In this document: one piece after another, positions 1 to 54,595 of the stretch
Position numbering within the stretch: the first letter of the stretch is position 1
Layout of the letters: every line of letters begins with the position of its first letter
Virus record (IMG/VR): IMGVR_UViG_3300003310_000099
Coordinates: 42,295 to 106,294 of that record
Source of the DNA: a virus
Lineage: Duplodnaviria > Heunggongvirae > Uroviricota > Caudoviricetes
Strand: one strand, 5' to 3'
Length of the DNA stretch: 64,000 nucleotides
Notes under the pieces: generated by a model
Told to the model about the DNA's origin: nothing
The model's database searches: none
Seen by the model: only the letters and a program-made list of their open reading frames with translations
Translations under genes and position numbers: made by a program

Positions 1-170
1 AGCAACAGCCATGCGCCGCCTTTACGGGCACAAACCCCGTAGAACAGGGGCATGATAATACGAAGCATCCTTGAGCGATGACGGCTCAGGGATAAAACCT
101 GAGCCAGATTGGGAAGAACACTATAACCTTGGCTCAGGTTAACACCCTGAGCCAAGGTTTTTTGTTTATA

Positions 171-188
171 CCTTAGCTGTACCGAAGG
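171..188 (+). promoter_or_regulatory. conserved motif copy 1 (CCTTAGCTGTACCGAAGG)
   Basis: One of six same-orientation copies of …[AT]ACCTTAGCTGTACC[GT]A[GA]…. Lies upstream of the tRNA array. Confidence 0.4.
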
Positions 189-329
189 AAATACCGACCG
201 ATTGACGTAACTCCCGTAATGTTCTATGACTTTACGGATCGGTGTCATGAAGTTGGACGCGGGTTCTTTGAAAATTTGGTTGGGGATTCATGCCTGGCAT
301 TAAGTTGTTGAGGATGAATCCCCCTGTAC

Positions 330-776: not shown

Positions 777-1208
777 ATGAAAAAATGTAGTAATTGCAAC
801 AAAGATAAAGCTCTATCGGAATTCAATAAAAAAAGGCAAGGATTACAACCTTGGTGCAGAGAATGCAATAGGTTGCGATCAAGGTTATATTATGCTCAAA
901 ACAAAGACAATCATTTGCAGGTGATTCAATCTCGTAAAGATAAGATTTACAAAGAGCATAATAGAAAAATTAAAGAAATAAAGTCTAATGCCTGTTGTGC
1001 ATTATGCCCAGAATCGGAATCGGTTTGTTTAGACTTCCACCATTTGAGAGATAAGGATGTTCCTATAAGCAGAATAGTGCATCGAGGATATTCTTGGGAA
1101 CGTATATTAATGGAAATGAAAAAATGCGTGGTTTTGTGTTCTAATTGCCATAGAAAAGTTCATGCTGGCATCCTAACTGTGAATGAAGAAATGTTATGGA
1201 CTAATTGA
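777..1208 (+). CDS. HNH homing endonuclease with N-terminal CxxC zinc finger
   Basis: 143 aa. CSNC…CREC N-terminal Zn finger, LDFHHL and CSNCH motifs (HNH). ATG starts 3 nt after the tRNA at 701..774. Paralogous to ORFs at 7165, 12323 and 39213. Confidence 0.8.
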   Translation: MKKCSNCNKDKALSEFNKKRQGLQPWCRECNRLRSRLYYAQNKDNHLQVIQSRKDKIYKEHNRKIKEIKSNACCALCPESESVCLDFHHLRDKDVPISRIVHRGYSWERILMEMKKCVVLCSNCHRKVHAGILTVNEEMLWTN

Positions 1209-1389: not shown

Positions 1390-1395
1390 CTGGAT

Positions 1396-1413
1396 ACCTT
1401 AGCTGTACCTAGT
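1396..1413 (+). promoter_or_regulatory. conserved motif copy 2 (ACCTTAGCTGTACCTAGT)
   Basis: Lies between the tRNAs at 1315..1389 and 1424..1498. Confidence 0.4.
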
Positions 1414-1810: not shown

Positions 1811-1816
1811 CTGAAA

Positions 1817-1838
1817 GCTTAGCTGTACTGAGTGTAAT
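1817..1838 (+). promoter_or_regulatory. conserved motif copy 3 (AGCTTAGCTGTACTGAGTG)
   Basis: Lies between the tRNA-like element ending 1810 and tRNA-Val at 1841. Confidence 0.35.
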
Positions 1839-2864: not shown

Positions 2865-3073
2865 TGTTTGCAATACAATTAACTAAGAATGTAGGGACCG
2901 AAGTTATCAGTTGGTGGTGCGAAGATGGTTTGCACAAAACTGGTTATGGGGCAGAAAGGTTTCGTAGACTTTATGCCGAAGAAGGGGAAGCTCAAAGACA
3001 CCTTGATTATTGTCGTGATTGGGCTTATCGTCATCATAGAAACACTTTAAAAGTTAGTGTAAAGGAGATTTAA
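2864..3073 (+). CDS. hypothetical protein (69 aa)
   Basis: Overlaps the stop of the upstream ORF by 1 nt (ATGA), consistent with translational coupling. Confidence 0.45.
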   Translation: MFAIQLTKNVGTEVISWWCEDGLHKTGYGAERFRRLYAEEGEAQRHLDYCRDWAYRHHRNTLKVSVKEI

Positions 3074-3106
3074 AATGTTTTATAAACGTAGGGGTCATTC
3101 AAATAT

Positions 3107-3180
3107 GGCCCCGAAACCTTTAGCTGGATGAGGTCCAGTCTTTTAAACTGGAAAAGAGGGTTCGATTCCCTACGGGGCTA
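3107..3180 (+). tRNA. tRNA, anticodon read as TTT (Lys); copy 2
   Basis: Acceptor ggccccg/cggggct, otherwise identical to 701..774. About 25 nt of upstream flank (ttataaacg[c/t]agg[a/g]gtcat) is also conserved. Confidence 0.6.
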
Positions 3181-3273
3181 CTTAATGGAAGCCTTACTTT
3201 TTGAATACGGTACGATTGCTGCATTAGCATTACTACTCGTATTATTGATTTGTAGTTTGTTTAGGAAGTAATT

Positions 3274-3346
3274 GCGGTGGGTCCAGTGCTGGTACTGGAG
3301 CCTGTCTTTGAAGCAGGAAGTCGCTGGTTCGATTCCAGCCGCCGCA
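3274..3346 (+). tRNA. tRNA-Gln (TTG), second copy
   Basis: Acceptor gcggtgg/ccgccgc (one G-U), D-stem ccag/ctgg, anticodon arm cctgt-ctTTGaa-gcagg, T-arm gctggTTCGATTccagc. Confidence 0.6.
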
Positions 3347-3348
3347 GC

Positions 3349-3669
3349 TTAGAAACGTTTCCAACCTGGATGATCCTGTCCCCAAGGAATAACCTTGCCA
3401 GGGTCGCGTTCAGAGGGTACTTGTTGTTGATATTGTTTCCATTTATCGCGGGCACCTGTTTCGCTCATATATTGTTTCAAGGCACGAATTAATGGAATTT
3501 GTAGAGCTTGTCTTAGTTGATCTACTTCAGCCTTAGCCTGTGGGGTCAACATATCATAATAGCTCTTTAATTTAGGAGGTAAATCTCTATAATCAGAGTT
3601 AAATACTCCTTTAATAAATTGACCTACGCCTTCGTCTTTACGGGTGCAGTATTCTTTGAATGTTTCCAT
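3349..3669 (-). CDS. hypothetical protein (106 aa)
   Basis: Minus-strand ORF. The overlapping plus-strand ORFs run through the tRNA and are rejected. Confidence 0.4.
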   Translation of the reverse strand: METFKEYCTRKDEGVGQFIKGVFNSDYRDLPPKLKSYYDMLTPQAKAEVDQLRQALQIPLIRALKQYMSETGARDKWKQYQQQVPSERDPGKVIPWGQDHPGWKRF

Positions 3670-3702
3670 GTTTTATTTAGGCAACTGTGATGGATTTCTA
3701 AA

Positions 3703-3774
3703 GCCGCTCTAACATAGTGGACTATGTGCCTGTGTGAAGAACAGGAAATCTGGGTTCAATTCCCAGGGGCGGCA
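3703..3774 (+). tRNA. tRNA-Phe (GAA)
   Basis: Acceptor gccgctc/gggcggc, D-stem acat/atgt, anticodon arm cctgt-gtGAAga-acagg, T-arm ctgggTTCAATTcccag. Confidence 0.6.
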
Positions 3775-3786
3775 CTATATACATTC

Positions 3787-4164
3787 ATGAGTGCAGCAAG
3801 AAGAAAATTTGCGTTTGGTTATCCTGATGGATATGGTGCGGCATTATATCCACCTGCTTATGATGCAACAGTATCTGCAACAGCTTTTTTGCAGTATCAA
3901 TTTCGTGCAGAGCAACAGGATAAAGCGCCACCAGATACAGCATTAGTAGACAAAAGTGGGGATTTAGCACAAAAAGAATACAAGGCTAAATATCCACCAG
4001 CTGATTTACCGCCCCATTCTGGTCTTTCTTCTTACAAAGGATTTGGCTATAAAGATGGCATAGGTTATATATTTTTCCAATCAGAGCCTACTGGTCCAGG
4101 TGTATACTCTTTTAAAGAGTGGTTGAGAAAAAATAATATAAACCCTGACAAATTTCCGAAATAA
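3787..4164 (+). CDS. hypothetical Tyr/Pro/Gly-rich protein (125 aa)
   Basis: The ORF-track start at 3724 lies inside the tRNA; the internal ATG at 3787 is used. Low-complexity YPPAY/GYG repeats. Confidence 0.45.
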   Translation: MSAARRKFAFGYPDGYGAALYPPAYDATVSATAFLQYQFRAEQQDKAPPDTALVDKSGDLAQKEYKAKYPPADLPPHSGLSSYKGFGYKDGIGYIFFQSEPTGPGVYSFKEWLRKNNINPDKFPK

Positions 4165-4175
4165 GGAGTTAAAAA

Positions 4176-4323
4176 TGAGTTGGGGTTCAAAAATCTTGGC
4201 GGCTGGCATTATACACAAAGTCAGCAAAGATAAGAAACCTGCTGGCGGTTGGATTGAACTAGGTTTCACGGTTTTTTGCATTTTGGCTGTTTTGGCTTTT
4301 GGAATTTGGGCTATCCTCCGATA
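4176..4323 (+). CDS. small hydrophobic membrane peptide (49 aa)
   Basis: MSWGSKILAAGIIHKVSKDKKPAGGWIELGFTVFCILAVLAFGIWAILR: a single predicted TM helix. Below the ORF-track length cut-off. Its stop overlaps a copy of the TTAGCTGTACC motif. Confidence 0.35.
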
Positions 4324-4343
4324 GCTTAGCTGTACCGAGTAGT
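4320..4343 (+). promoter_or_regulatory. conserved motif copy 4 (GATAGCTTAGCTGTACCGAGTAG)
   Basis: Overlaps the stop of small ORF 4176..4323. Confidence 0.4.
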
Positions 4344-4378
4344 CTGTGGGAAAACTTTGAGTTGTTCATAAATACTAC

Positions 4379-5017
4379 ATGATGGATTTCAAGGACTACT
4401 GTATGGCAAACACTGTCAATCTGAGTGATATTTCTTTGTTTGAATCACAGTTTTTATTCAAAGAAATGGCGGTTTTGAACCCAAACGCGATTGCGAAGAC
4501 TCAGAACGCTTTTCAGTTTATTTACGATAATAACATTCGTGGTGTTATCATTGGGGGTATGGCCGTCAGTCATTATACTCAGGACAGAAAGTTGACGCCT
4601 GATGTTGATTTTCTTACAGCGGATATCAATGCTGTGAAAGCAGCATTGCAAAAGAATCAGATGGCTTCGCGGCCTTTGGCTTCGACTGGAGATTTCGGTG
4701 GTCTTTATGTTCCTCAGTTAGATGCCGATTTTTTGGATGCTAATGAAGGTTCAGATGTAGCATTAAACCACTATATCTTGAAGACTGCGAAGACTGCAAC
4801 TATCGGGGGAGTAACTTTCCCGATTATTGATCCAGCAGTTTTGATGATTATGAAGTTCGTCATTGGCAGGGATAAAGATCAGGCTGACGCTTTCAAGTTG
4901 CTGCCAACTTTGAATAAGGCGGAATTAAAAACGCATTTGAAGGCTTTGAAGGGGGTTTTGCCAAAGGGAATGGCTAAAACCATTTGGGATGATGCTCAAT
5001 GGGCTGTTAAAGTTTAA
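4379..5017 (+). CDS. nucleotidyltransferase-fold protein (AbiEii/DUF1814-like GG…D.DF motif)
   Basis: 212 aa. GVIIGGMAVSHYTQDRKLTPDVDFL resembles the Pol-beta-type NTase signature (GG.A…R.T.D.D). Confidence 0.45.
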   Translation: MMDFKDYCMANTVNLSDISLFESQFLFKEMAVLNPNAIAKTQNAFQFIYDNNIRGVIIGGMAVSHYTQDRKLTPDVDFLTADINAVKAALQKNQMASRPLASTGDFGGLYVPQLDADFLDANEGSDVALNHYILKTAKTATIGGVTFPIIDPAVLMIMKFVIGRDKDQADAFKLLPTLNKAELKTHLKALKGVLPKGMAKTIWDDAQWAVKV

Positions 5018-6733: not shown

Positions 6734-6874
6734 ATTGGGCTTGTACGTCAATGGTAAGACTTCGTGCTTTAAGCCGATACATGGAGTCAATAGGCGTAGC
6801 TAACCTATCTTTGTCCATGATGAATGCTAGACATTCTTCAGGCAGGAACTGCACGAAAAGCGGGTTCGATTCCC
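6727..6874 (+). tRNA. tRNA-like gene with ~85-nt insertion in the anticodon region (possible intron-containing tRNA)
   Basis: 5' half gggcttg-ta-gtc-aatggtaa-gac-t-tcgtg-ctttaag…, 3' half …cacga-aaa-gcgggTTCGATTcccgc-ctagccc. Anticodon stem tcgtg/cacga pairs only across the insert. Anticodon would read TTA or TAA depending on register. Confidence 0.35.
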
Positions 6875-6883
6875 GCCTAGCCC

Positions 6884-6956
6884 ACTGGATTATGCCCCTA
6901 TGCTCGTAATTGGTAACGAACGAGTCTCTTAAACTCGGAATCAGGGTTCGACTCCC
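6884..6956 (+). tRNA. tRNA-Lys (CTT), second copy
   Basis: Acceptor gccccta/tgggggc, D-stem tcg/cga, anticodon arm cgagt-ctCTTaa-actcg, T-arm cagggTTCGACTccctg. Confidence 0.6.
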
Positions 6957-7103: not shown

Positions 7104-7164
7104 GTCTCCACAGCTTATATTGCATAGCTCAAAGTTATATGGTATATTTGAACCTGGAGGTTCT

Positions 7165-7518
7165 ATGCCATATAAAGATGTTGATAAACAAAAAGAGTCA
7201 CAGCAAACTTATTACCAAAAGAATAAGGATTTGTATAAAGCTAGGGATAAAGAAAGAAAAGAAGAAATAAAAACTTGGGTTAGAAATTATCGTATTTCTA
7301 AAGTTTGTGAGGATTGTGGTGAAGACCGATGGCAATGTTTAGATTTCCACCATATAGATTCGAGTAACAAGTTTTTATCTATTAGTATGATGGTGCGAAA
7401 GAAATATTCTGTAGAAAAGATTAAGAATGAAATAATGAAGTGTAAAGTTATTTGTGCTAACTGTCATCGGTGTCATCATAGCGGTAATGTTTGGGAGAGT
7501 GCTAGTCTCGGAGTGTAA
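7165..7518 (+). CDS. HNH homing endonuclease (zinc-finger type)
   Basis: 117 aa from the internal ATG preceded by GGAGG. CEDCGE…LDFHHID…CANCH motifs. Confidence 0.8.
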   Translation: MPYKDVDKQKESQQTYYQKNKDLYKARDKERKEEIKTWVRNYRISKVCEDCGEDRWQCLDFHHIDSSNKFLSISMMVRKKYSVEKIKNEIMKCKVICANCHRCHHSGNVWESASLGV

Positions 7519-11223: not shown

Positions 11224-11247
11224 GATACCTTAGCTGTACCTAGTGGT
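11224..11247 (+). promoter_or_regulatory. conserved motif copy 5 (GATACCTTAGCTGTACCTAGTGG)
   Basis: Immediately after the stop of the glycosyltransferase gene. Followed by hairpin gtgttctgaaacac. Confidence 0.4.
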
Positions 11248-11280
11248 GTGTTCTGAAACACAAAACAAAGGGGGGCTTCA

Positions 11281-11571
11281 ATGCGGTACTCACTGGCTTT
11301 AGTTTGTTTGCTAATTGTTTCGCCTTGCTTTGCTGACAACTTTTTTTCTGTTCTGAAGAAGGACCAGAAAGTTGGGTTGCAAGAAACACCGAATGGCTAT
11401 CACATCAAGGTTTTCAAGAATTTTGGTGAGGACACAGCACCTTACAAGGTGATTGAAATTGGTGATAATTATATTGTGATTGAAGATGCAATCGGCGTGA
11501 ATGAGATTCGGATTCCGATTTACTCTATTAAGTCGATTACAACTGTGAAGTTTCCTCAAAAGGCGAAGTGA
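11281..11571 (+). CDS. secreted protein with N-terminal signal peptide (96 aa)
   Basis: MRYSLALVCLLIVSPCFA hydrophobic N-terminus after an AAGGGGGG RBS. Confidence 0.5.
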   Translation: MRYSLALVCLLIVSPCFADNFFSVLKKDQKVGLQETPNGYHIKVFKNFGEDTAPYKVIEIGDNYIVIEDAIGVNEIRIPIYSIKSITTVKFPQKAK

Positions 11572-12322: not shown

Positions 12323-12808
12323 ATGGTTTTATGTAGCAAGTGCAAAAAAGATAAATCTGCTTCGGAATTTAATTTCAATAGTTCCAAAAATCGGTTGGAA
12401 TATCACTGTAAAGAGTGTCATAGTGAATATTTGAAAGAACATTATAAGAAAAATAAAGATTATTATAAGTCCAAAGCCAGCAAAAGAAATAAGTTGGTTA
12501 AACAAGAAAATAAAGTTAGGATTTTTGAGTATTTGCAAAATCATGCTTGTGTTGATTGTGGAGAAAAAGAGCCTATATTTTTAGATTTTGACCATGTAAG
12601 GGGTAAGAAACGATGTAGTCTTTCTAAGCTTGTTAGGGGAGGCTATGCGTGGGAAATAATTCAACAAGAGATAGACAAGTGCGAAATTCGCTGTGTGAAA
12701 TGCCATAGAGTAAAAACATACAAGCAGTTTGGTTGGTATGGTTGGTGGGAAGATATGGCCCGTGGGTGTGATGGATTAGCACATCACTCTACGAAAGTGA
12801 AAGAATAG
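12323..12808 (+). CDS. HNH homing endonuclease (zinc-finger type)
   Basis: 161 aa. CSKC…CKEC, LDFDHV, CVKCH motifs. Its last ~17 codons are encoded by the tRNA-Arg gene at 12757..12829. Confidence 0.75.
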   Translation: MVLCSKCKKDKSASEFNFNSSKNRLEYHCKECHSEYLKEHYKKNKDYYKSKASKRNKLVKQENKVRIFEYLQNHACVDCGEKEPIFLDFDHVRGKKRCSLSKLVRGGYAWEIIQQEIDKCEIRCVKCHRVKTYKQFGWYGWWEDMARGCDGLAHHSTKVKE

Positions 12809-16810: not shown

Positions 16811-17477
16811 TTTACCCCCTTGGCGAAGATGGTTTGAAGTCTTTATTCGTTTCCTTATATTCTATAGCATTTTCAGTTTCTATGCAGAAGTAGATTTCGC
16901 CAAAGAAGATACAAGTAGTGGGTTCTGGCTCTGGAGTGAGCGAGTTGTAGCTATCATATTCACTATTGAATACATTTTAAGATGGAGTTGGTCCCCGCAC
17001 GGCTGGAAATGGCCTTTCACTTTCTATGCTGTCGTAGATTTACTCGCAATTCTACCTTTCTACATAGGATTCTTTGTCCCATCCCACCACTTGGGCGTCA
17101 TACGGTCTTTGCGTGTTCTAAGACTGTTGAAGCTAACTAGGTACAGTTTAGCTTTGGACAGGTTTTTAGACAGTTTCAGAAGAGTTAAGGATGAATTAAC
17201 GATCATCATGGTGTTTTTGATGATTGTAGTCTTTTTAGGGGCTACTCTTCTGTATGAGTTTGAGCATCCTGTTCAGCCTGAAAAAATCTCCTGTTTAGCA
17301 GACGCAACTTGGCTATGTTTCATCACCATAGCGACTATTGGTTATGGTGACATATACCCAATGACTTGGCCTGGAAGGATTATAGTGATGATTGTGTGTG
17401 TATTGGGGCTTGGTATTTTTGGTTCATTCGTCAGTCTTTTAGGCAGTTCCGTAATATGCAGGGATAAGAAACCTTAA
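16803..17477 (+). CDS. voltage-gated potassium channel (6-TM, Kv-like)
   Basis: 224 aa. S4-like VIRSLRVLRLLKLTRYS has Arg/Lys every third residue. The pore has the canonical K+ selectivity filter TIATIGYGD. There are hydrophobic segments before and after. Confidence 0.8.
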   Translation: MNDLPPWRRWFEVFIRFLIFYSIFSFYAEVDFAKEDTSSGFWLWSERVVAIIFTIEYILRWSWSPHGWKWPFTFYAVVDLLAILPFYIGFFVPSHHLGVIRSLRVLRLLKLTRYSLALDRFLDSFRRVKDELTIIMVFLMIVVFLGATLLYEFEHPVQPEKISCLADATWLCFITIATIGYGDIYPMTWPGRIIVMIVCVLGLGIFGSFVSLLGSSVICRDKKP

Positions 17478-25941: not shown

Positions 25942-26772
25942 ATGTGTGCAGATATTTTCTATACAATTGGGGCAACTCATCAAGTCTGCCAGGATTTTGC
26001 CCTGACTGATGGCAAATCCTATGTGATCGTTTCTGATGGTTGTTCATCTGCAAAAGACTCTGATTGGGGTTCAAGACTCCTTGCTAAAGCGTTAGAAGAG
26101 TCTTTCAGGGAGAAATCCAGACTGAAATTGGATGAGATTCCTGTGTCGTTAATTAACAATGCTGTTAAACTTGCAGAGTGCTATACTGCTTTGTTAAAGA
26201 TCGACAAGGACTGTCTGGCAGCTACTTTAATGGCAGCTTACAAGACAGATAAAGGCATTCATGCTTTCATTAGTGGGGATGGCAGTATTGTAGCTAAATT
26301 TGGCGATAGCCTGCAAATTATTGACCATAGCTATGATAGTGGCGCACCATACTATCTTTATTACACCCTGGATGACGGCTTAAAGTATGGCTATAGCCAA
26401 GCTTTTGGCAATGGTGAACTTCACATTGAAAAGAGCATTGTTGAAGTGAATCGTGGTCGTAGAACTATAAGGGAAACACTTTCTGGTCCTAGTATGGTTA
26501 GAACGACTTCTCATTATTTCTTTCCCAAAGAAGAATTTACTTGTGTTGGTATAATCACTGATGGCTTGAAGTCATTCGTCAAACAGGTGAAAAAACACAC
26601 TAGTATTACAAACGAATCAGTGCCTTTTGAGAGTTTTGTTGGCGATTTGTTCAGTTTTAAGACGCATGAAGGTCAGTACGTTCATCGTCGTTGTCAGCGT
26701 GCTTTCAGGGAATTTCACAATCAAGGCATCAAGCATAATGACGATTTTGCTATGGGAGTGATAGGACATTGA
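25942..26772 (+). CDS. PP2C-like (PPM family) protein phosphatase candidate
   Basis: 276 aa. VSDGCSSAKDSDWGS, ISGDGSIVA and C-terminal NDDFAMGVIG resemble the PPM motifs DGxGG, GDSR and DN-t-vvv. Assigned by motif only. Confidence 0.45.
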   Translation: MCADIFYTIGATHQVCQDFALTDGKSYVIVSDGCSSAKDSDWGSRLLAKALEESFREKSRLKLDEIPVSLINNAVKLAECYTALLKIDKDCLAATLMAAYKTDKGIHAFISGDGSIVAKFGDSLQIIDHSYDSGAPYYLYYTLDDGLKYGYSQAFGNGELHIEKSIVEVNRGRRTIRETLSGPSMVRTTSHYFFPKEEFTCVGIITDGLKSFVKQVKKHTSITNESVPFESFVGDLFSFKTHEGQYVHRRCQRAFREFHNQGIKHNDDFAMGVIGH

Positions 26773-26951
26773 AAGAAATAAATGAATTAAAAAACCGCCC
26801 TATGGATATTGTCGCCCTCGAACAACTAAGGGCGATGCATGATTATTATCTTAGCAAGATGGTTGATTATGCCACAATTGACTATATTGGAGAAAAGGAT
26901 ATCCGTCAACTTAGAGAAATCTATGCCAAGAAGGAAGCAGCAAAGCCATGA
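26769..26951 (+). CDS. hypothetical protein (60 aa)
   Basis: Sits between the phosphatase-like and kinase-like genes, overlapping both by 4 nt. Confidence 0.4.
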   Translation: MKEINELKNRPMDIVALEQLRAMHDYYLSKMVDYATIDYIGEKDIRQLREIYAKKEAAKP

Positions 26952-28624
26952 AAGTCTTTATCAAGGGTAAAAACAAGCCGATTGAATTAAATAATGCAGA
27001 CTTTCTTGCTGCTGGTGGTGAAGGCAAGATTTATGTTAAAGGCGACACCGTATATAAAATATGCGAATCTGGCAAAATGATTCCTGAAGGGAAATTTGCT
27101 GAACTTTCCGTCTTGTCTGACCCTCATATCATCAAACCCGAACAAATCCTCGTAGATGCCAAGAACCAAAATGTTGGCTATACGATGAAATTCATTCAGG
27201 ACAGTTACACGCTTTGCCAAATCTTCACCAAAGCATTTCGTCTAAGAAACAATATTAAGCACGATACCGTGATTGATCTTGTTCGACAAATGCAGAGAAC
27301 AATTCAGCATATCCATAATCACAATATTCTCCTTGTGGATGGCAACGAGTTTAACTTCCTTTTGGATAACAAGTTCAAGGAAGTGTATTTCATTGACGTG
27401 AACAGCTATCAGACTCCACACTATCCTGCTATGGCTATTATGGATAGCATCAGGGATAGACACGCTCACAATAAATTCAGTAAACTTACAGACTGGTTCT
27501 CGTTCGCTATTGTTTCATTTCAGATGTTTATCGGCATTCACCCTTATAAGGGCAAGCATCCGAAACATACTGATATCGACAGCAGAATGCTCCATAATGT
27601 CTCGGTATTTGACAAGGATGTAGGTTTCCCTGTGGCGGCTTGTCAGCCTTTCACAGTGATACCAGACGCTTATTTGCAGTGGTATAAAGCGGTTTTGGAC
27701 AGAGGTGAGCGTATTCCGCCACCTAATGATTTGATTGCTACGGTCCATGTTATTGTGCCAGTGGTCAAGCTTGTTGGGGGTAAAAGCTTGTCTATCGACA
27801 AATTACGCGAGTTTACTTCCAACATTATGGGATATTATCACTCGTCTGGCACGGAAGTTTTTGTGACCGACAAGAAAATCTATGTCAATAAGGACGAATT
27901 TGACAACAACGGCAACAAGACCGTGATTGGTTTCACCAGAACCAATATGCCTATTGCTGCTTGGCTTGATGGCGGTTATGTCAAATTGCATGATATTACC
28001 AAGAACAAGTTGATTAATTTCTCTTGCTCTGGTAGTAAGATCATGGACATTGAAGGTCGTATTTATGTCCAAAACGGCATGAACATTATTGAAATTGTGT
28101 TCACCGAAATTAAGGACAAGATTATTGCCTCACCACATATTGTGGCTAATGTCCTTGAGCAAGCGACACGGTTCTATGATGGTGTAGTGATTCAGAACCT
28201 GTTTGATGCTTATTATGCATCTATTTTCCCAATGACCAAGAATTGTCAGCAGATTGCTTTAAGGGAACTGGATGGTCTGCGGGTTATTGATGCGAAGTAT
28301 GAAGGTAAGATTTTGATGGTAGTGGCTGTTGATAAGAAGGGCCACTATAACCGCTTTACCTTTGCTTTCAAAGATGACTGGAAGTATGATATTGCTAAAA
28401 AGGAAAATATCACTTATACTGGTTTGAACTTCACCGTATTGGATAATGGCGTTTGTATCCATATTGATGAAGATGAGAATATTGAAATTTTCAACAAACT
28501 GAGCAATGCCAAGGTTGTTACGGATGATGCGATCAATAATGATATGTTGCTATATCATAAAGGTGCAGCGGTTCTGTTTACCAAGGACAACGCCATTTAC
28601 TCTGTTGCAATGAGAAAACCATGA
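26948..28624 (+). CDS. protein-kinase-like protein with large C-terminal domain
   Basis: 558 aa. Gly-rich loop AAGGEGKIYV, Lys in VYKI, catalytic-loop-like HNHNILLVDGNEFNFLLD, DFG-like FIDVNSY. Confidence 0.5.
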   Translation: MKVFIKGKNKPIELNNADFLAAGGEGKIYVKGDTVYKICESGKMIPEGKFAELSVLSDPHIIKPEQILVDAKNQNVGYTMKFIQDSYTLCQIFTKAFRLRNNIKHDTVIDLVRQMQRTIQHIHNHNILLVDGNEFNFLLDNKFKEVYFIDVNSYQTPHYPAMAIMDSIRDRHAHNKFSKLTDWFSFAIVSFQMFIGIHPYKGKHPKHTDIDSRMLHNVSVFDKDVGFPVAACQPFTVIPDAYLQWYKAVLDRGERIPPPNDLIATVHVIVPVVKLVGGKSLSIDKLREFTSNIMGYYHSSGTEVFVTDKKIYVNKDEFDNNGNKTVIGFTRTNMPIAAWLDGGYVKLHDITKNKLINFSCSGSKIMDIEGRIYVQNGMNIIEIVFTEIKDKIIASPHIVANVLEQATRFYDGVVIQNLFDAYYASIFPMTKNCQQIALRELDGLRVIDAKYEGKILMVVAVDKKGHYNRFTFAFKDDWKYDIAKKENITYTGLNFTVLDNGVCIHIDEDENIEIFNKLSNAKVVTDDAINNDMLLYHKGAAVLFTKDNAIYSVAMRKP

Positions 28625-38000: not shown

Positions 38001-38380
38001 TGGTATACTACTTATTTTTTCTACATTGGGTCGGTGATTTCGTATTTCAACATCGCTGGATGGCTAATAATAAGAGCCATAATCGGTGGGCGTTGATGCT
38101 ACACTGTTTTGTGTATTCTGCCACTTTAGGTGGTGGCTTATACTGGTTGCGGCCTGAATATGTTACTTTGCCAGAGTTTGGTTTGTTTATATTCTTTAAC
38201 CTTTGCGCTCATTACTTGACAGATTCGATTACAAGCAAAATTACGTCTTATTTGTATAGTAAACAGCAATTTTATTTGTTCTTTGTTGTGATTGGCCTCG
38301 ATCAATTAATACATATTTCAACTCTATTATTGAGTTGTCAGTTTATAATTGAAAGGGCGGGTCACAAATGGCTAATATAA
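38000..38380 (+). CDS. hypothetical membrane protein (126 aa)
   Basis: Four hydrophobic segments. HWVGDFVFQHRW motif. Confidence 0.45.
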   Translation: MVYYLFFLHWVGDFVFQHRWMANNKSHNRWALMLHCFVYSATLGGGLYWLRPEYVTLPEFGLFIFFNLCAHYLTDSITSKITSYLYSKQQFYLFFVVIGLDQLIHISTLLLSCQFIIERAGHKWLI

Positions 38381-38799
38381 AGAAGTATAAGAGGCTAAGG
38401 AAAGTGGGCTATACCATACTTGGTCTTTATAAGATGGGTAAGTTGGATGGTATGACCCCAGACGAAATAGTAGCGATGTTAGACAAGGTATTGACGGATT
38501 ACGGCCATGATAGAATAGTTAAGTTTATGCGGAGAATGGAGTTTGGTGAAGAAGATTGCATGATCTGCCAGAAGATTTTTGTAGATAAGCCAGGAGAATG
38601 GTGTAGTCAAAATTGTCCAGAGTGCCAGAAGAACATTAATGAAATGTGGGAAAAGATTCATGATGAGTTGGGGGATGAGGAATTAAATTCAGAAGAAATG
38701 GGGAGTATGTTTGCTCTGGTTACACTTGGGGCAATTGCGAAATCGGTGGAGCGAGATAGCTTAGCTGTACCGAGTGAAATAAAGCCTCCTGTTGCATAA
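38368..38799 (+). CDS. hypothetical protein (143 aa)
   Basis: CMICQK…CPECQK zinc-ribbon motifs. The 3' end contains a copy of the TTAGCTGTACC motif. Confidence 0.45.
   Translation: MANIKKYKRLRKVGYTILGLYKMGKLDGMTPDEIVAMLDKVLTDYGHDRIVKFMRRMEFGEEDCMICQKIFVDKPGEWCSQNCPECQKNINEMWEKIHDELGDEELNSEEMGSMFALVTLGAIAKSVERDSLAVPSEIKPPVA
38754..38780 (+). promoter_or_regulatory. conserved motif copy 6 (GAGATAGCTTAGCTGTACCGAGTG)
   Basis: Within the last 15 codons of ORF 38368..38799. Confidence 0.4.
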
Positions 38800-38806
38800 A
38801 TAATTC

Positions 38807-39121
38807 ATGAACTTCCATGAATTCGTTAGAAACAAAGATGTTGAGTTTTGCGAAGAACGCAAAAAAGGTGCTGCCAAGATAGCTAGAGAAGCGACCGCAA
38901 AAGGTGGATATGCTCGCTTGACAGGATGGCATTTTAGTGCTAAATTACCAGAGTACACTCAATGCACAAATGACATTGGTAACAAGAACAAGGATTACTA
39001 CAAACAAAAGATGATTAGTTTCCTGAAAGCGGCAATGTCTTCGACTAATCAGAAACATTTTCAGGAATTAATGGGGAAGGCAGAAGTTTGGGGCGAAGTG
39101 TATTTTGAGTTGAAGCACTAA
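38807..39121 (+). CDS. hypothetical protein (104 aa)
   Basis: ORF. Confidence 0.45.
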   Translation: MNFHEFVRNKDVEFCEERKKGAAKIAREATAKGGYARLTGWHFSAKLPEYTQCTNDIGNKNKDYYKQKMISFLKAAMSSTNQKHFQELMGKAEVWGEVYFELKH

Positions 39122-39212: not shown

Positions 39213-39629
39213 ATGGAAAAGAAGTGTCCCAAATGTGGAGAGGTTAAAGATCAGTCACAATTTAGGACAAGTGTAAGCAGAAAGAGTGGGTTGCAGTCTT
39301 ATTGCATAATTTGTGACAAAGAAAAACAGAGACTTCATTATTTGCAAAACAAGGAACGGTATATTAAGAAGTCTCACGAAACTGCAAGAAGGAAAGCCAA
39401 TTGGTGGAAACAGTATAAGAAAACTTTAAAATGCAATAGGTGCCCAGAAAGCCATCCTGCATGTTTGCAATTTCATCATGTTGATCCTTCTAAAAAAGAG
39501 GTTGCTATATCAAAAGTGGTTAGATTTTGGAGTATTAAACGTATTATGCAAGAATTAGAAAAATGCGAAGTCATATGCTCTAATTGCCATTTTAAGGAAC
39601 ATTGGATAGATATACCTGACGACTCTTGA
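39213..39629 (+). CDS. HNH homing endonuclease (zinc-finger type)
   Basis: 138 aa. CPKCGE…CIICD, LQFHHVD and CSNCH motifs. Starts 6 nt after the type II tRNA. Confidence 0.8.
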   Translation: MEKKCPKCGEVKDQSQFRTSVSRKSGLQSYCIICDKEKQRLHYLQNKERYIKKSHETARRKANWWKQYKKTLKCNRCPESHPACLQFHHVDPSKKEVAISKVVRFWSIKRIMQELEKCEVICSNCHFKEHWIDIPDDS

Positions 39630-53623: not shown

Positions 53624-54054
53624 ACACTACAATGATCCTTGGATTTAATAAAGAAAACAGATTCCTGTCTAATTTCTACCCAGCTACGGTTGAGCTAGAT
53701 GGCCTGGAATACAGTTCGACCGAACATGCTTACCAAGCAGCAAAAACCATTGATCCTGCTGAAAGACGTAGGATTCGAGAGTCCCAGAAGCCTGGTGATG
53801 CCAAAAAGCTTGGCAAACAGGTCAAAATTCGCACGGATTGGGAACAAGTAAAATTCCAGGTTATGGAAGACTTAGTAAGGCAAAAATTTACTAAACACAA
53901 AGAGTTAAAGGAAAAACTCTTAGAAACAGGTGACAAATACTTAGAAGAGACAAACACCTGGGGTGATGTAATTTGGGGAGTATGTAAAGGAAAAGGTGAA
54001 AACCATCTTGGCAAAATCTTAATGAAGGTAAGAGACGAGCTTAAAACTCCCTGA
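53620..54054 (+). CDS. NADAR (YbiA-like) domain protein
   Basis: FLSNFYP…EYSSTEHAYQAAK…PGDAKKLGKQVKIRTDWEQVKFQVMEDLVRQKF…GENHLGKILMKVR matches the NADAR / YbiA signature along its full length. Confidence 0.8.
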   Translation: MNTTMILGFNKENRFLSNFYPATVELDGLEYSSTEHAYQAAKTIDPAERRRIRESQKPGDAKKLGKQVKIRTDWEQVKFQVMEDLVRQKFTKHKELKEKLLETGDKYLEETNTWGDVIWGVCKGKGENHLGKILMKVRDELKTP

Positions 54055-54373
54055 GATACCTTCTCTTGAGTTCTTCATAATTCTTTTTAGACCTATAAGT
54101 TTGTCTTAATAGGCTTAGAACTATAGTTGTGAAGAAATTATATGCCACGCCTTTGGTTCTGTCATATCTTGGCAGTTTCTCCCAGCATATCATGACACCT
54201 TCTTGAATGGCGTCATCATTGTCAATAATTTTGGTATTGAAATATTTAACAACATGTTCAGCGAGCCAATAAAATGCCTCGCTGAGCTTTTCTTTATCTA
54301 TTTTACCATCCAGGTAATCGCAAACTGCTTTTTCAAATTTGGCATCTGTCATTCTTAACCAATAATTTTTCAT
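54041..54373 (-). CDS. sigma-factor-like protein (ECF region-2-like)
   Basis: DDAIQEGVMICWEKLPRYDRTKGVAYNFFTTIVLSLLRQTYRSKK parallels ECF sigma region 2 (D…QETF…W..L..F…F..WL..IA.N…D..RR). Only 110 aa. Confidence 0.4.
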   Translation of the reverse strand: MKNYWLRMTDAKFEKAVCDYLDGKIDKEKLSEAFYWLAEHVVKYFNTKIIDNDDAIQEGVMICWEKLPRYDRTKGVAYNFFTTIVLSLLRQTYRSKKNYEELKRRYLREF

Positions 54374-54376
54374 AAC

Positions 54377-54595
54377 TTAAGAGAGTTTGACTATATCTTT
54401 AATTACCTTTTCTAGCAATTTTCCTCTCTTTTCTTCTGATACATTATGAATTAGACCATTGAGTTTAATGACCCACTGTTCTAATTGATTAACAATTAAG
54501 GCGTAATCTTGACTGACATTTAATTCTACATTGCTGTTTGTGAGAGCGGCTACCTCTTCATCTTTGTTCTGCGTGAGCCATTCGTTAAATTTCAT
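54377..54595 (-). CDS. hypothetical protein (72 aa)
   Basis: Minus-strand ORF adjacent to the sigma-like gene. Confidence 0.4.
   Translation of the reverse strand: MKFNEWLTQNKDEEVAALTNSNVELNVSQDYALIVNQLEQWVIKLNGLIHNVSEEKRGKLLEKVIKDIVKLS

What the first reader, a model, noticed from the sequence alone, without database searches (positions are those of the whole stretch)
11224..11247. A ~20-nt motif GATAcCTTAGCTGTACCgAGT occurs six times, all on the + strand
Copies are at 171, 1396, 1817, 4320, 11224 and 38754. The core TTAGCTGTAC is invariant. Copies sit between tRNAs, at or across stop codons, and once after the glycosyltransferase gene followed by a hairpin. The motif is not palindromic, so it is more likely a promoter for a phage-specified sigma factor or RNA polymerase, or an RNA processing site, than a protein-binding palindrome. 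A sigma-like ORF is at 54041..54373.
Basis: seen in the sequence. Interest (0 to 1): 0.55.

Follow-up and report, generated by a model that had tools for sequence, protein, structure and literature searches.

The report
Phage-specific promoter motif of a megaphage
The repeated 21-base motif is most likely a promoter used only by a group of uncultured ~600-kb phages, which gives a first view of how these very large phages organise their own transcription.

Summary
Six copies of GATAsCTTAGCTGTACCkAGT lie on the + strand, where about 0 are expected by chance, and there are no intermediate matches.

The window comes from a 596-kb uncultured phage contig. Related metagenomic phages carry the same motif, or lineage variants of it, 30-45 times per 12-21 kb. 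The variants are TTAGTTGTACC-AAT, GGC-TTAGTTGTACC-ATC and AATTGCAATTGTACC. Copies are almost always on the gene strand, lie between genes, and sit in front of most small genes, often just after a terminator hairpin.

- **Orthologous sites:** two sites in a syntenic ~590-kb phage keep the motif in that lineage's own variant. The motif stays with the downstream gene or tRNA, not the upstream one.
- **Copy 1:** it is a clean 13-base presence/absence difference within DNA that is 91% identical.
- **Inferred start site:** start codons without a ribosome-binding site pile up exactly 20 nt after the core start. tRNA 5' ends fall at +22 to +25. Positions 19/20 are T/purine. Together these place the transcription start at +20.
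- **Not a host promoter:** a canonical TTGACA-N16/17-TATAGT/TATATT promoter is conserved nearby, so the motif is a separate promoter class.

The best reading is a phage-specific promoter read by a multisubunit RNA polymerase under a phage-encoded specificity factor or phage polymerase. The reader protein was not identified. No transcript data were used.

The parts
167..187 (+). Motif copy 1 (TATACCTTAGCTGTACCGAAG), with the transcription start inferred at 193. It sits 8 nt after a terminator's T run, at the head of the tRNA array.
   Evidence: One search shows a precise 13-nt presence/absence (TATACCTTAGCTG) against the type-B phage in DNA that is 91% identical.
125..165 (+). Intrinsic terminator: a 14-bp stem (AACCTTGGCTCAGG...CCTGAGCCAAGGTT) followed by TTTTTT, immediately upstream of copy 1.
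   Evidence: L054 9349-9383 corresponds to window 125-159; the sequence is shown.
188..329 (+). Conserved, hairpin-rich non-coding stretch between copy 1 and tRNA-Val. It would be the 5' part of the transcript from copy 1.
   Evidence: about 91% identity to the type-B phage; one search finds no Rfam family here.
1393..1413 (+). Motif copy 2, with the start inferred at 1419, 5 nt before tRNA-Pro(tgg) at 1424-1499.
   Evidence: One search shows the orthologous site in the type-B phage carrying the lineage variant; the distance to the downstream tRNA is kept (25 vs 22 nt) while the distance to the upstream tRNA is not (2 vs 100 nt).
1813..1833 (+). Motif copy 3, with the start inferred at 1839, 2 nt before tRNA-Val(tac) at 1841-1913.
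4320..4340 (+). Motif copy 4, with the start inferred at 4346, upstream of ORF 4379-5017. Its TAG is the stop codon of ORF 4175-4324.
   Evidence: Searches show that homology with L046 (86.7%) runs through the gene and the motif and ends at the motif's 5' edge.
11224..11244 (+). Motif copy 5 (the flagged one), with the start inferred at 11250, upstream of ORF 11281-11571.
   Evidence: Searches show the type-B phage lacks the 443-aa ORF but keeps its own variant motif and a homologous leader in front of the ortholog of ORF 11281-11571.
38755..38775 (+). Motif copy 6, with the start inferred at 38781, upstream of ORF 38807-39121. It overlaps the last 15 codons of ORF 38368-38799.
54041..54373 (-). 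110-aa ORF with a sigma-70 region 2 domain only. It is a candidate specificity factor, but a link to the motif is not shown.
   Evidence: Pfam Sigma70_r2, E 6.3e-6, 26.3 bits against a cut-off of 24; weak PHROG hits to sigma and late sigma factors; homologues found only in close relatives.

Best explanation
The motif is a phage-specific promoter. It belongs to a family whose core is (C)TTAG[C/T]TGTACC, or more broadly YTGTACC, used by a clade of uncultured ~590-620-kb phages.

A conserved block of about 20 bp, with no -35 box, sits at about -25 to -6. It is followed by about 5 poorly conserved bases, a pyrimidine at -1 and a purine start 20 nt after the first T of TTAGCTGTAC. In the window this predicts starts at 193, 1419, 1839, 4346, 11250 and 38781.

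This layout (conserved block, short spacer, then a Y-R start) is that of a multisubunit RNA polymerase, not a T7-type enzyme. The most likely reader is host core polymerase carrying a phage-encoded sigma-like factor. A phage multisubunit polymerase is the alternative.

In the window the motif adds a phage-controlled start to the head and interior of the tRNA array and to three protein genes. In relatives it drives nearly every small gene of dense ORFan regions. Some of those transcripts appear to be leaderless mRNAs that begin at the AUG.

Shown here: the motif's non-random occurrence, its strand and position relative to genes, its lineage-specific variants, its conservation at orthologous sites, and the spacing statistics. 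Inferred: that it acts on DNA as a promoter, the exact start site, and the kind of polymerase.
For: **Enrichment and separation from background**
- Six copies against 0.09 expected, with a bimodal score distribution.

**Same motif in relatives**
- 14 metagenome contigs carry the motif, up to 33 copies on one strand in 12.4 kb (L042).
- The consensus is WWAsC-TTAGCTGTAC-C-D-A-G-T.
- Distance to start codons with a ribosome-binding site clusters at 43-51 nt.

**Lineage variants**
- Type B: 42 copies in 21 kb (L058, 590-kb contig).
- Type C: 44 copies in 21 kb (L060, 586-kb contig).
- Type D: 36 copies in 21 kb (L183, 623-kb contig).
- Strand bias is 59:2 for type B, 43:0 for type C, and 51:0 for the hexamer TGTACC in L183 (type D).

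**Independent gene calls**
- In L058, 0 of 42 copies lie inside a JGI-called gene, and 35 of 53 + strand genes have a copy within 90 nt upstream.

**Orthology in the syntenic type-B phage**
- Window sites 11230 and 1399 have counterparts carrying the B variant.
- The position is kept relative to the downstream unit only.

**Gain and loss**
- Copies are gained or lost as precise small indels just after terminators.
- An indel boundary falls at the motif edge in L046.

**Start-site inference**
- ATG codons of long ORFs lacking a ribosome-binding site peak at exactly +20: 6 of 76 type-A sites, 10 of 61 type-B sites, and 7 JGI-called starts in L058.
- Five tRNAs begin at +22 to +25.
- Position 19 is T in 86% of type-A sites, and position 20 is a purine in 89-91% of type-A and type-B sites (69% in type C).
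- All six window copies have T19 and R20.

**Not the host housekeeping promoter**
- A canonical TTGACA-N16/17-TATAGT/TATATT promoter is conserved between the two phages 32 nt downstream of the type-B copy.

**Similar geometry in known systems**
- AR9 and phiKZ virion-polymerase promoters are a conserved block, 6 N, then a purine start (PMC5312081).
- The phiEco32 sigma promoter is TAATGTATA (PMC4331800).
Against: - No transcript 5' ends were examined, so every functional statement is inference from sequence.
- The reader protein was not identified. No RNA polymerase gene was seen in about 82 kb of the source contig or in about 150 kb of relatives.
- The only sigma-like ORF in the window has no detectable homologue in the type B-D loci or in IMG/VR.
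- A nuclease that recognises the same sequence in RNA and cuts 10 nt downstream would give the same spacing statistics.
- Only 6 copies occur in 82 kb of the source genome, so most genes in the window must use other signals.
- In type C the purine preference at +20 is weaker (69%), and the ATG peak is at +19 with only two cases.
Confidence: 0.78

Rival explanations
1. The motif is an RNA processing signal. It is transcribed as part of long polycistronic RNAs, and a sequence-specific endonuclease, phage or host, cuts about 10 nt downstream of it. This releases tRNAs and mRNAs with defined 5' ends, including AUG-initial ones.
For: - The motif shares the strand of the genes.
- Spacing to start codons (+20) and tRNA 5' ends (+22 to +25) is fixed.
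- Hairpins often lie just upstream and could protect the 3' end of the upstream fragment.
- Copies 2 and 3 lie inside a tRNA array that must be processed anyway.
Against: - Many copies follow strong intrinsic terminators with T runs, which would leave little read-through RNA to process (window copy 1, L107 2646, many type-D copies).
- A few reversed copies exist where no sense transcript is expected.
- Protein nucleases recognising about 20 nt of unstructured RNA are not known, on my own knowledge.
- The T(-1)/purine(+1) pair is the usual initiation preference of multisubunit polymerases.
- tRNA maturation needs no such signal.
Confidence: 0.09
2. The motif is a promoter for a single-subunit T7-like phage RNA polymerase. 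The conserved block would be -17 to -1 and initiation would be at the invariant A 12 nt after the core start.
For: - The block is contiguous, about 20 bp, very highly conserved, and lacks -35/-10 structure.
- It has an AT-rich 5' edge.
- Variants are lineage-specific, as with T7, T3 and SP6.
- A12 is invariant in type A.
Against: - Positions 12-14 differ between lineages (AGT, ATT, TCA), so there is no shared initiating sequence.
- A poorly conserved gap separates the block from the point where genes and tRNAs begin.
- The sharp ATG peak at +20 without a ribosome-binding site has no explanation if RNAs start at +12.
- No PF00940-type polymerase appeared among the Pfam hits returned for the ORFs that were scanned in the fetched loci or in the JGI pre-computed hits. 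Only part of each genome was visible, and the batch scans list at most 25 families.
- A 5'-UTR hairpin that would need a start at or before +13 was not supported: 67% of cells paired against 64% in shuffles.
Confidence: 0.08
3. The motif is mainly a recombination or cassette-shuffling site, as proposed for PeSL elements of T4-like phages or for integron attC sites, or an operator for a DNA-binding regulator. On this reading it is not itself a promoter.
For: - Indel boundaries coincide with motif edges.
- The motif precedes each small ORFan in hyperplastic-looking regions, often with a stem-loop upstream, as PeSLs do (PMC4122927).
Against: - PeSLs are themselves promoters plus terminators, so shuffling is a by-product of the repeated sequence.
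- The strict spacing to start codons and tRNA 5' ends, and the Y-R signature at +19/+20, are not expected for a pure recombination site.
- The motif is not palindromic and there are no paired inverted copies.
- No integrase-like gene was seen next to the arrays.
- If the motif were only an operator, the dense small-gene arrays would be left with no candidate promoter: only one conserved sigma70-type site was found (at the head of the tRNA array), and those arrays were not scanned for others.
Confidence: 0.04

Closest known systems
PeSL cassettes (promoter-early stem-loop) of T4-like phages RB49/phi1, T4/PST and KVP40/nt-1 (PMC2839356, PMC4122927)
   Same: - Both are short composite units of a stem-loop terminator followed by a promoter, repeated in front of many small ORFan genes in plastic regions of large T4-related myophages.
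- Both differ slightly between phage lineages.
- Both coincide with indel boundaries between close relatives.
- The window phage carries T4-type markers: gp15-like and 30.3-like hits, and a DNA ligase nearest to Cr30 and phiM12. An Rnl1-type RNA ligase lies next to the motif in relatives.
   Different: - The PeSL promoter part is a sigma70 -35/N17/-10 promoter, or a MotA box plus -10. This motif has neither.
- A true sigma70-type promoter coexists with the motif here.
- In the window only 1 of 6 copies has the upstream stem-loop.
Promoters of phage-encoded sigma factors: phiEco32 gp36 (TAATGTATA), T4 gp55 (TATAAATA), SPO1 gp28
   Same: - Each is a single conserved element near -10, without a -35 box, read by host core polymerase carrying a phage sigma.
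- The TGTA centre resembles the phiEco32 element.
- The block occupies the place of the T4 late box relative to the inferred start. The T4 and SPO1 details are from my own knowledge.
- A sigma region-2-only ORF is present in the window.
   Different: - The conserved block is twice as long, about 20 bp against 8-9 bp.
- The sigma-like ORF has not been linked to the motif and was not found in the other motif-bearing lineages.
- The genes served are tRNAs and small ORFans, which looks early or middle and not late.
Virion-RNA-polymerase early promoters of phiKZ-like jumbo phages (AR9: AAATATATATTAT-N6-G+1; PMC5312081)
   Same: - Both have a long, nearly invariant block, then 5-6 unconserved bases, then a purine start.
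- Both occur in tens of copies.
- Both were found first by over-representation between genes.
   Different: - Those motifs are AT-rich and belong to phages with split beta/beta' polymerase genes.
- No such genes were seen here, and the sequence is unrelated.
T7/T3/SP6-type single-subunit polymerase promoters
   Same: Both are a contiguous block of about 20 bp with promoter variants specific to each lineage.
   Different: - In T7-type promoters conservation runs through +1 into the transcript, on my own knowledge.
- Here a gap separates the block from the inferred start.
- No such polymerase gene was seen.

Membership tests
Sigma70-type promoter (including the promoter part of PeSLs) | A -35 hexamer like TTGACA, a 16-18 nt spacer, and a -10 hexamer like TATAAT with A at position 2 and T at position 6. 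| tested here: not met
   Consensus over 76-82 type-A, 61 type-B and 43 type-C sites shows no conserved bases upstream of -6 relative to the core, and no TAnnnT at the right spacing. A genuine TTGACA-N16/17-TATAGT/TATATT site is conserved separately.
PeSL cassette | A stem-loop terminator directly upstream of the promoter element. | tested here: inconclusive
   Present at window copy 1, at 22 of 83 type-A sites as a hairpin with a TCGCCC loop 19-25 nt upstream, and at many type-D sites as a hairpin plus T run. Absent at 5 of 6 window copies.
PeSL cassette | Repeated before small ORFan genes in plastic regions and associated with indels between close relatives. | tested here: met
   L042, L058, L060 and L183 carry 33-44 copies per 12-21 kb before genes of 40-150 aa. 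Indel boundaries fall at motif edges.
Phage-sigma-dependent promoter | A single conserved element around -10 with a start 5-8 nt downstream and no -35 box. | tested here: inconclusive
   The geometry fits if the start is at +20: TA of GTACC at about -13/-12, then a 5-7 nt spacer, then Y-R. The start site is inferred, not mapped.
Phage-sigma-dependent promoter | A phage-encoded sigma factor that reads it. | not testable with these tools
   A sigma region-2 ORF exists at 54041-54373 on the minus strand, but its homologues are limited to 5 close relatives and none was found in IMG/VR. Binding cannot be tested in silico.
T7-like single-subunit polymerase promoter | Conservation that is continuous from about -17 through +1 to +3, with a fixed initiating purine. 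| tested here: not met
   Positions 12-14 differ between lineages, positions 15-18 are poorly conserved, and functional units begin at +20 or later.
T7-like single-subunit polymerase promoter | A single-subunit polymerase gene (Pfam PF00940) in the genome. | not testable with these tools
   Only about 82 kb of the 596-kb contig and parts of the relatives could be read. No RNA polymerase family appeared in the returned Pfam hits for those parts, noting that the batch scans list at most 25 families.
phiKZ/AR9 virion-polymerase early promoter | An extended conserved block, then 6 N, then a purine start. | tested here: inconclusive
   Block, then 5 N, then R20 is observed, compared with AR9. The sequence is not AT-rich, no beta/beta'-like genes were seen, and the start is inferred only.

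The most novel reading that the evidence does not exclude
The motif family marks a previously undescribed, self-contained transcription system of ~600-kb T4-related megaphages.

- A dedicated specificity factor or polymerase of unknown family reads a 20-bp promoter.
- Its specificity has switched between sister lineages: C/T at core position 4, and a wholly different 5' half in type D.
- It launches tRNA arrays and dozens of single-gene units, a sizeable fraction as leaderless mRNAs.

If so, the lineage variants would be a natural set of mutually orthogonal promoter/reader pairs.
Probability: 0.3. Interest if true: 0.8.

Novelty: new variant of a known kind. Interest (0 to 1): 0.6.

Why it matters
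Phages of about 600 kb are known only from metagenomes, and nothing is known about how they time their gene expression.

A sharply defined promoter family with lineage-specific variants offers several things:
- It partitions these genomes into transcription units without culturing.
- It marks which genes, including the tRNA arrays and the ORFan regions, are under phage-specific control.
- It predicts leaderless mRNAs.

It also extends the terminator-promoter cassette idea, known from T4-like phages with sigma70 promoters, to a non-sigma70 promoter class.

The practical interest is a set of short, strong, probably orthogonal promoters.

Tried and rejected
- **LR756511.1 (595-kb GenBank phage):** it gave the best ligase hit at 70% aa identity. 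Only the ligase and two weak hits are shared over 41 kb, and it has no motif. I did not download the rest.
- **GenBank/INPHARED phages:** no record carries the type A, B or C motif in multiple copies.
- **IMG/VR, type A:** only single chance hits.
- **GTDB genomes:** 4 single chance hits.
- **Literature:** a search for the core string returned only primers and similar.
- **5'-UTR hairpin:** one starting at +13 would have placed the start upstream of that. RNAalifold found no consensus structure. A hand-specified helix was 67% paired against 64% in shuffles, and sliding it by -1 gave a similar covariation score, so the result is inconclusive and I dropped it.
- **An earlier idea of mine:** that GAG at +11 to +13 serves as the ribosome-binding site of the +20 class. 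Type-B +20 genes lack it, so I dropped it.
- **Sigma-like ORF as the conserved reader:** only 5 homologues, all close relatives whose syntenic contigs hold no motif copies, and none in IMG/VR. This is unresolved, not refuted.
- **Sigma-like 354-aa protein next to the type-E arrays:** no homologue in the A-D lineages.
- **T4 late box TATAAATA:** not enriched in the window, 2 and 3 copies on the two strands.
- **Minus-strand near-match at 17135:** it lies inside a gene and is not conserved in type B, so I treat it as chance.
- **Exact-protein look-ups:** two found nothing, probably because the called start codons differ.

Full report

Yes. TTAGCTGTAC occurs six times in 64 kb, always on the + strand, where 0.09 are expected. 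The 21-mer matches with 3 or fewer mismatches at 167, 1393, 1813, 4320, 11224 and 38755, where 0 are expected. A weight matrix separates these six (31-37 bits) from everything else on that strand (7 bits or less). Sequence beyond the block is unrelated between copies. After tRNA-derived words, it is the most repeated word in the window.

Two labels need correction. The 'glycosyltransferase' label is unsupported. The sigma-like ORF is on the minus strand.

**2. What is the window?**

It holds 49 tRNA genes by ARAGORN and 43 by Rfam. It also carries ligase, NAPRTase, SAICAR synthase, a kinase/phosphatase pair, PTH2, EF-Ts-like and T4-type markers.

An exact-protein look-up places it on JGI contig Ga0071082_100015, 596,394 bp, starting near position 265,308. 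The 9.2 kb to the left and 8.5 kb to the right hold no further copies. It is therefore a megaphage, and the motif is sparse in this part of it.

**3. The motif elsewhere**

A scan of JGI metagenome contigs with a strict pattern found 14 contigs, several with many copies. Counting the core alone, L042 has 33 copies on one strand in 12.4 kb, L048 has 14, and L045 and L038 have 6 each.

Over 78 distinct sites the consensus is W W A(97%) S C(100%) TTAGCTGTAC C(96%) D A(100%) G(94%) T(88%), followed by weaker a k T G T. Core variants are rare.

Nearly every small ORF in L042 has its own copy, and the distance from core start to an ATG with a ribosome-binding site is 43-51 nt. A hairpin with a TCGCCC loop lies 19-25 nt upstream at 22 of 83 sites, and others follow intrinsic terminators with T runs.

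**4. Lineage variants**

A 364-aa T4 Rnl1-type RNA ligase begins exactly 20 nt after a core in L042. Its homologues lie on contigs of 586-693 kb. Around them:

| Locus | Contig size | Motif | Copies |
|---|---|---|---|
| L058 | 590 kb | wTAsC TTAGTTGTAC CAATTAGG | 42 |
| L060 | 586 kb | GGC TTAGTTGTAC CATCAA | 44 |
| L183 | 623 kb | TAATTG CAATTGTACC A | 36 |
| L184 | 693 kb | aACTGACACCGGCAT (unrelated, same position before genes) | 15 GACACCGG sites, about 12 with the full motif |

IMG/VR holds 390 kb of the type-B genome. Its fetched pieces (71 kb) carry 59 copies on + and 2 on -. With JGI's own gene calls, none of the 42 copies in L058 lies inside a gene, and 35 of 53 + strand genes have a copy within 90 nt upstream.

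Uniformity within a genome together with difference between genomes is what a cis site read by a co-evolving trans factor looks like.

**5. Orthologous sites**

The type-B phage is syntenic with the window phage. The SIMPL, GP88 and ThiF flank genes, the tRNA array, the ligase and others share 58-85% aa identity.

- **The flagged copy (11230).** Type B lacks the 443-aa ORF. It still has TATAGC TTAGTTGTAC CAATGG, followed by a homologous leader, in front of the ortholog of ORF 11281-11571. The copy therefore belongs to the downstream gene, not to the gene whose stop codon it abuts.
- **Copy 1399.** Both phages have the motif before tRNA-Pro(tgg). The distance to that tRNA is 25 and 22 nt, while the distance from the upstream tRNA is 2 and 100 nt.
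- **Copy 4326.** In L046, 86.7% homology runs through the gene and the motif and stops at the motif's 5' edge. Upstream of that point the two phages differ by about 540 bp.
- **Copy 173.** Within DNA that is 91% identical, it is a precise 13-nt presence/absence (TATACCTTAGCTG) plus one substitution, 8 nt after a terminator's T run.
- **Type B's own head-of-array copy.** Type B has a copy in a 42-nt indel right after the terminator of the preceding gene. It lies 32 nt upstream of a canonical TTGACA-N16/17-(TG)TATAGT/TATATT promoter that both phages share.

Two conclusions follow. The host's housekeeping promoter is of the ordinary kind, so the motif is a different class. And each lineage has kept a motif-type start at the head of the tRNA array, although at different places.

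**6. Where does transcription start?**

Three independent spacings point to +20, counting the first T of the core as 0.

- **Start codons.** ATG codons that open ORFs of 40 or more codons, mostly without a ribosome-binding site, pile up at exactly +20. There are 6 such cases in type A and none at +10 to +19. There are 10 in type B, and 7 of JGI's called starts in L058. The RNA ligase is among them in both lineages.
- **tRNA 5' ends.** When a tRNA follows directly, it begins at +22 to +25: window 1424 and 1841, L107 4150, L058 2333 and L060 8141.
- **Base preference.** Position 19 is T in 86% of type-A sites and T or C in 84% of type-B sites. Position 20 is a purine in 89% and 91%.

All six window copies have T19 and R20. 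This gives predicted starts at 193, 1419, 1839, 4346, 11250 and 38781.

The +20 class would then be leaderless mRNAs. The conserved block lies at about -25 to -6, followed by a short unconserved spacer. That is the layout of multisubunit-polymerase promoters, as with the AR9/phiKZ virion-polymerase motif followed by N6 and G or the single-element phage-sigma promoters such as phiEco32's TAATGTATA. It is not the layout of T7-type promoters.

An alternative start near +12 would need a 5' hairpin beginning at +13. That hairpin was not supported.

**7. Who reads it?**

This is unresolved. No RNA polymerase family appeared in the Pfam hits returned for the readable parts of these genomes. These were direct scans, batch scans that list at most 25 families, and JGI pre-computed hits, and they covered mainly the larger ORFs.

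The window encodes a 110-aa protein consisting only of sigma region 2 (54041-54373, minus strand). Its homologues are few and close. Their syntenic contigs carry no motif copies. It was not found in IMG/VR, including 390 kb of the type-B genome. It remains a candidate with no positive link.

**8. Rivals**

- **An RNA-cleavage signal** would mimic the spacing data. It fits poorly with copies placed right after strong terminators, with the reversed copies, and with the Y-R signature.
- **A pure recombination site or operator** does not explain the spacing. Shuffling at the repeats is likely a side effect, as proposed for PeSLs.

**9. Comparison and novelty**

The architecture (stem-loop, promoter, small gene, repeated, with indel boundaries at the repeats) is that of PeSL cassettes of T4-like phages. 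The promoter element, however, fails the sigma70 test.

The motif and its variants are absent from GenBank phages. Type A and its variants were not found in multiple copies in IMG/VR apart from the one type-B genome. They are absent from GTDB genomes and from the searchable literature.

I file it as a new variant of a known kind: phage-specific promoters in terminator-promoter cassettes. It is not a new category.

**10. Verdict**

Confidence that it is a promoter is about 0.78. The class of polymerase and the +20 start are reasoned from sequence statistics, and the specificity factor is unknown.

Noticed in passing
L054 8935-8962 (about window -290 to -263, just outside the window): A canonical sigma70-type promoter, TTGACA-N16-(TG)cTATAGT, lies after a terminator and before tRNA-Met at the true head of the tRNA array. 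It is conserved in the type-B phage as TTGACA-N17-TATATT. It shows that host-type promoters are also used.
   Followed up: partly
window 188-329: A non-coding stretch of about 140 nt between motif copy 1 and tRNA-Val holds two long hairpins (CCGAT..CCGTAA..TTACGG..ATCGG and GGGGATTCAT..ATGAATCCCC). It is about 91% identical in the type-B phage and has no Rfam match. It may be an unknown small RNA.
   Followed up: partly
window 777-1208, 7120-7518, 12323-12808, 39213-39629: Several paralogous HNH/endonuclease VII-like ORFs are scattered through the tRNA regions, with further copies in the type-B phage (L107). They resemble homing endonucleases of T4 tRNA regions.
   Followed up: partly
window 6737-6884: Rfam reports a 148-nt tRNA match (43 bits) that ARAGORN did not list. 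It may be a tRNA with an intron or insertion.
   Followed up: no
L042, L048, L044 and L039 (for example L042 reverse-complement coordinates 2330-2350): In the GC-rich type-A relatives, a hairpin with variable arms and a conserved TTCGCCC loop sits 19-25 nt upstream of the core at 22 of 83 sites, without a T run. It may be a terminator or processing hairpin specific to the same system.
   Followed up: partly
L042 + strand 943; L037 - strand 319; L045 - strand 1456: One reversed motif copy with about 40 nt of conserved upstream flank is kept in three related contigs. It points into a terminator and the 3' end of the neighbouring gene, so it may be an antisense promoter.
   Followed up: no
L184 (ENA contig of 693 kb), 15 GACACCGG sites, for example 1254, 3952, 11103: A more distant megaphage has an unrelated repeated motif, aACTGACACCGGCAT, 35-45 nt upstream of start codons. 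A 354-aa sigma-region-2-like gene lies nearby at 2885-3949. This suggests that lineage-private promoters are general in these phages.
   Followed up: partly
window 54377-54595 and 54041-54373 (minus strand): A 72-aa ORF and the 110-aa sigma-like ORF are in the same frame, separated only by TAA-GTT. Together they span 185 codons, close to the size of T4 gp55 as I recall it. The pair is kept in the same order in the related contigs L181 and L182.
   Followed up: partly
L055 near 11220 (window about 1996): A near-identical contig from another sample carries a 78-nt insertion right after tRNA-His. This is probably an extra tRNA and shows ongoing tRNA gain or loss in the array.
   Followed up: no
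window 25942-28624: Adjacent PP2C-type phosphatase and protein-kinase-domain genes are an unusual signalling pair for a phage.
   Followed up: no
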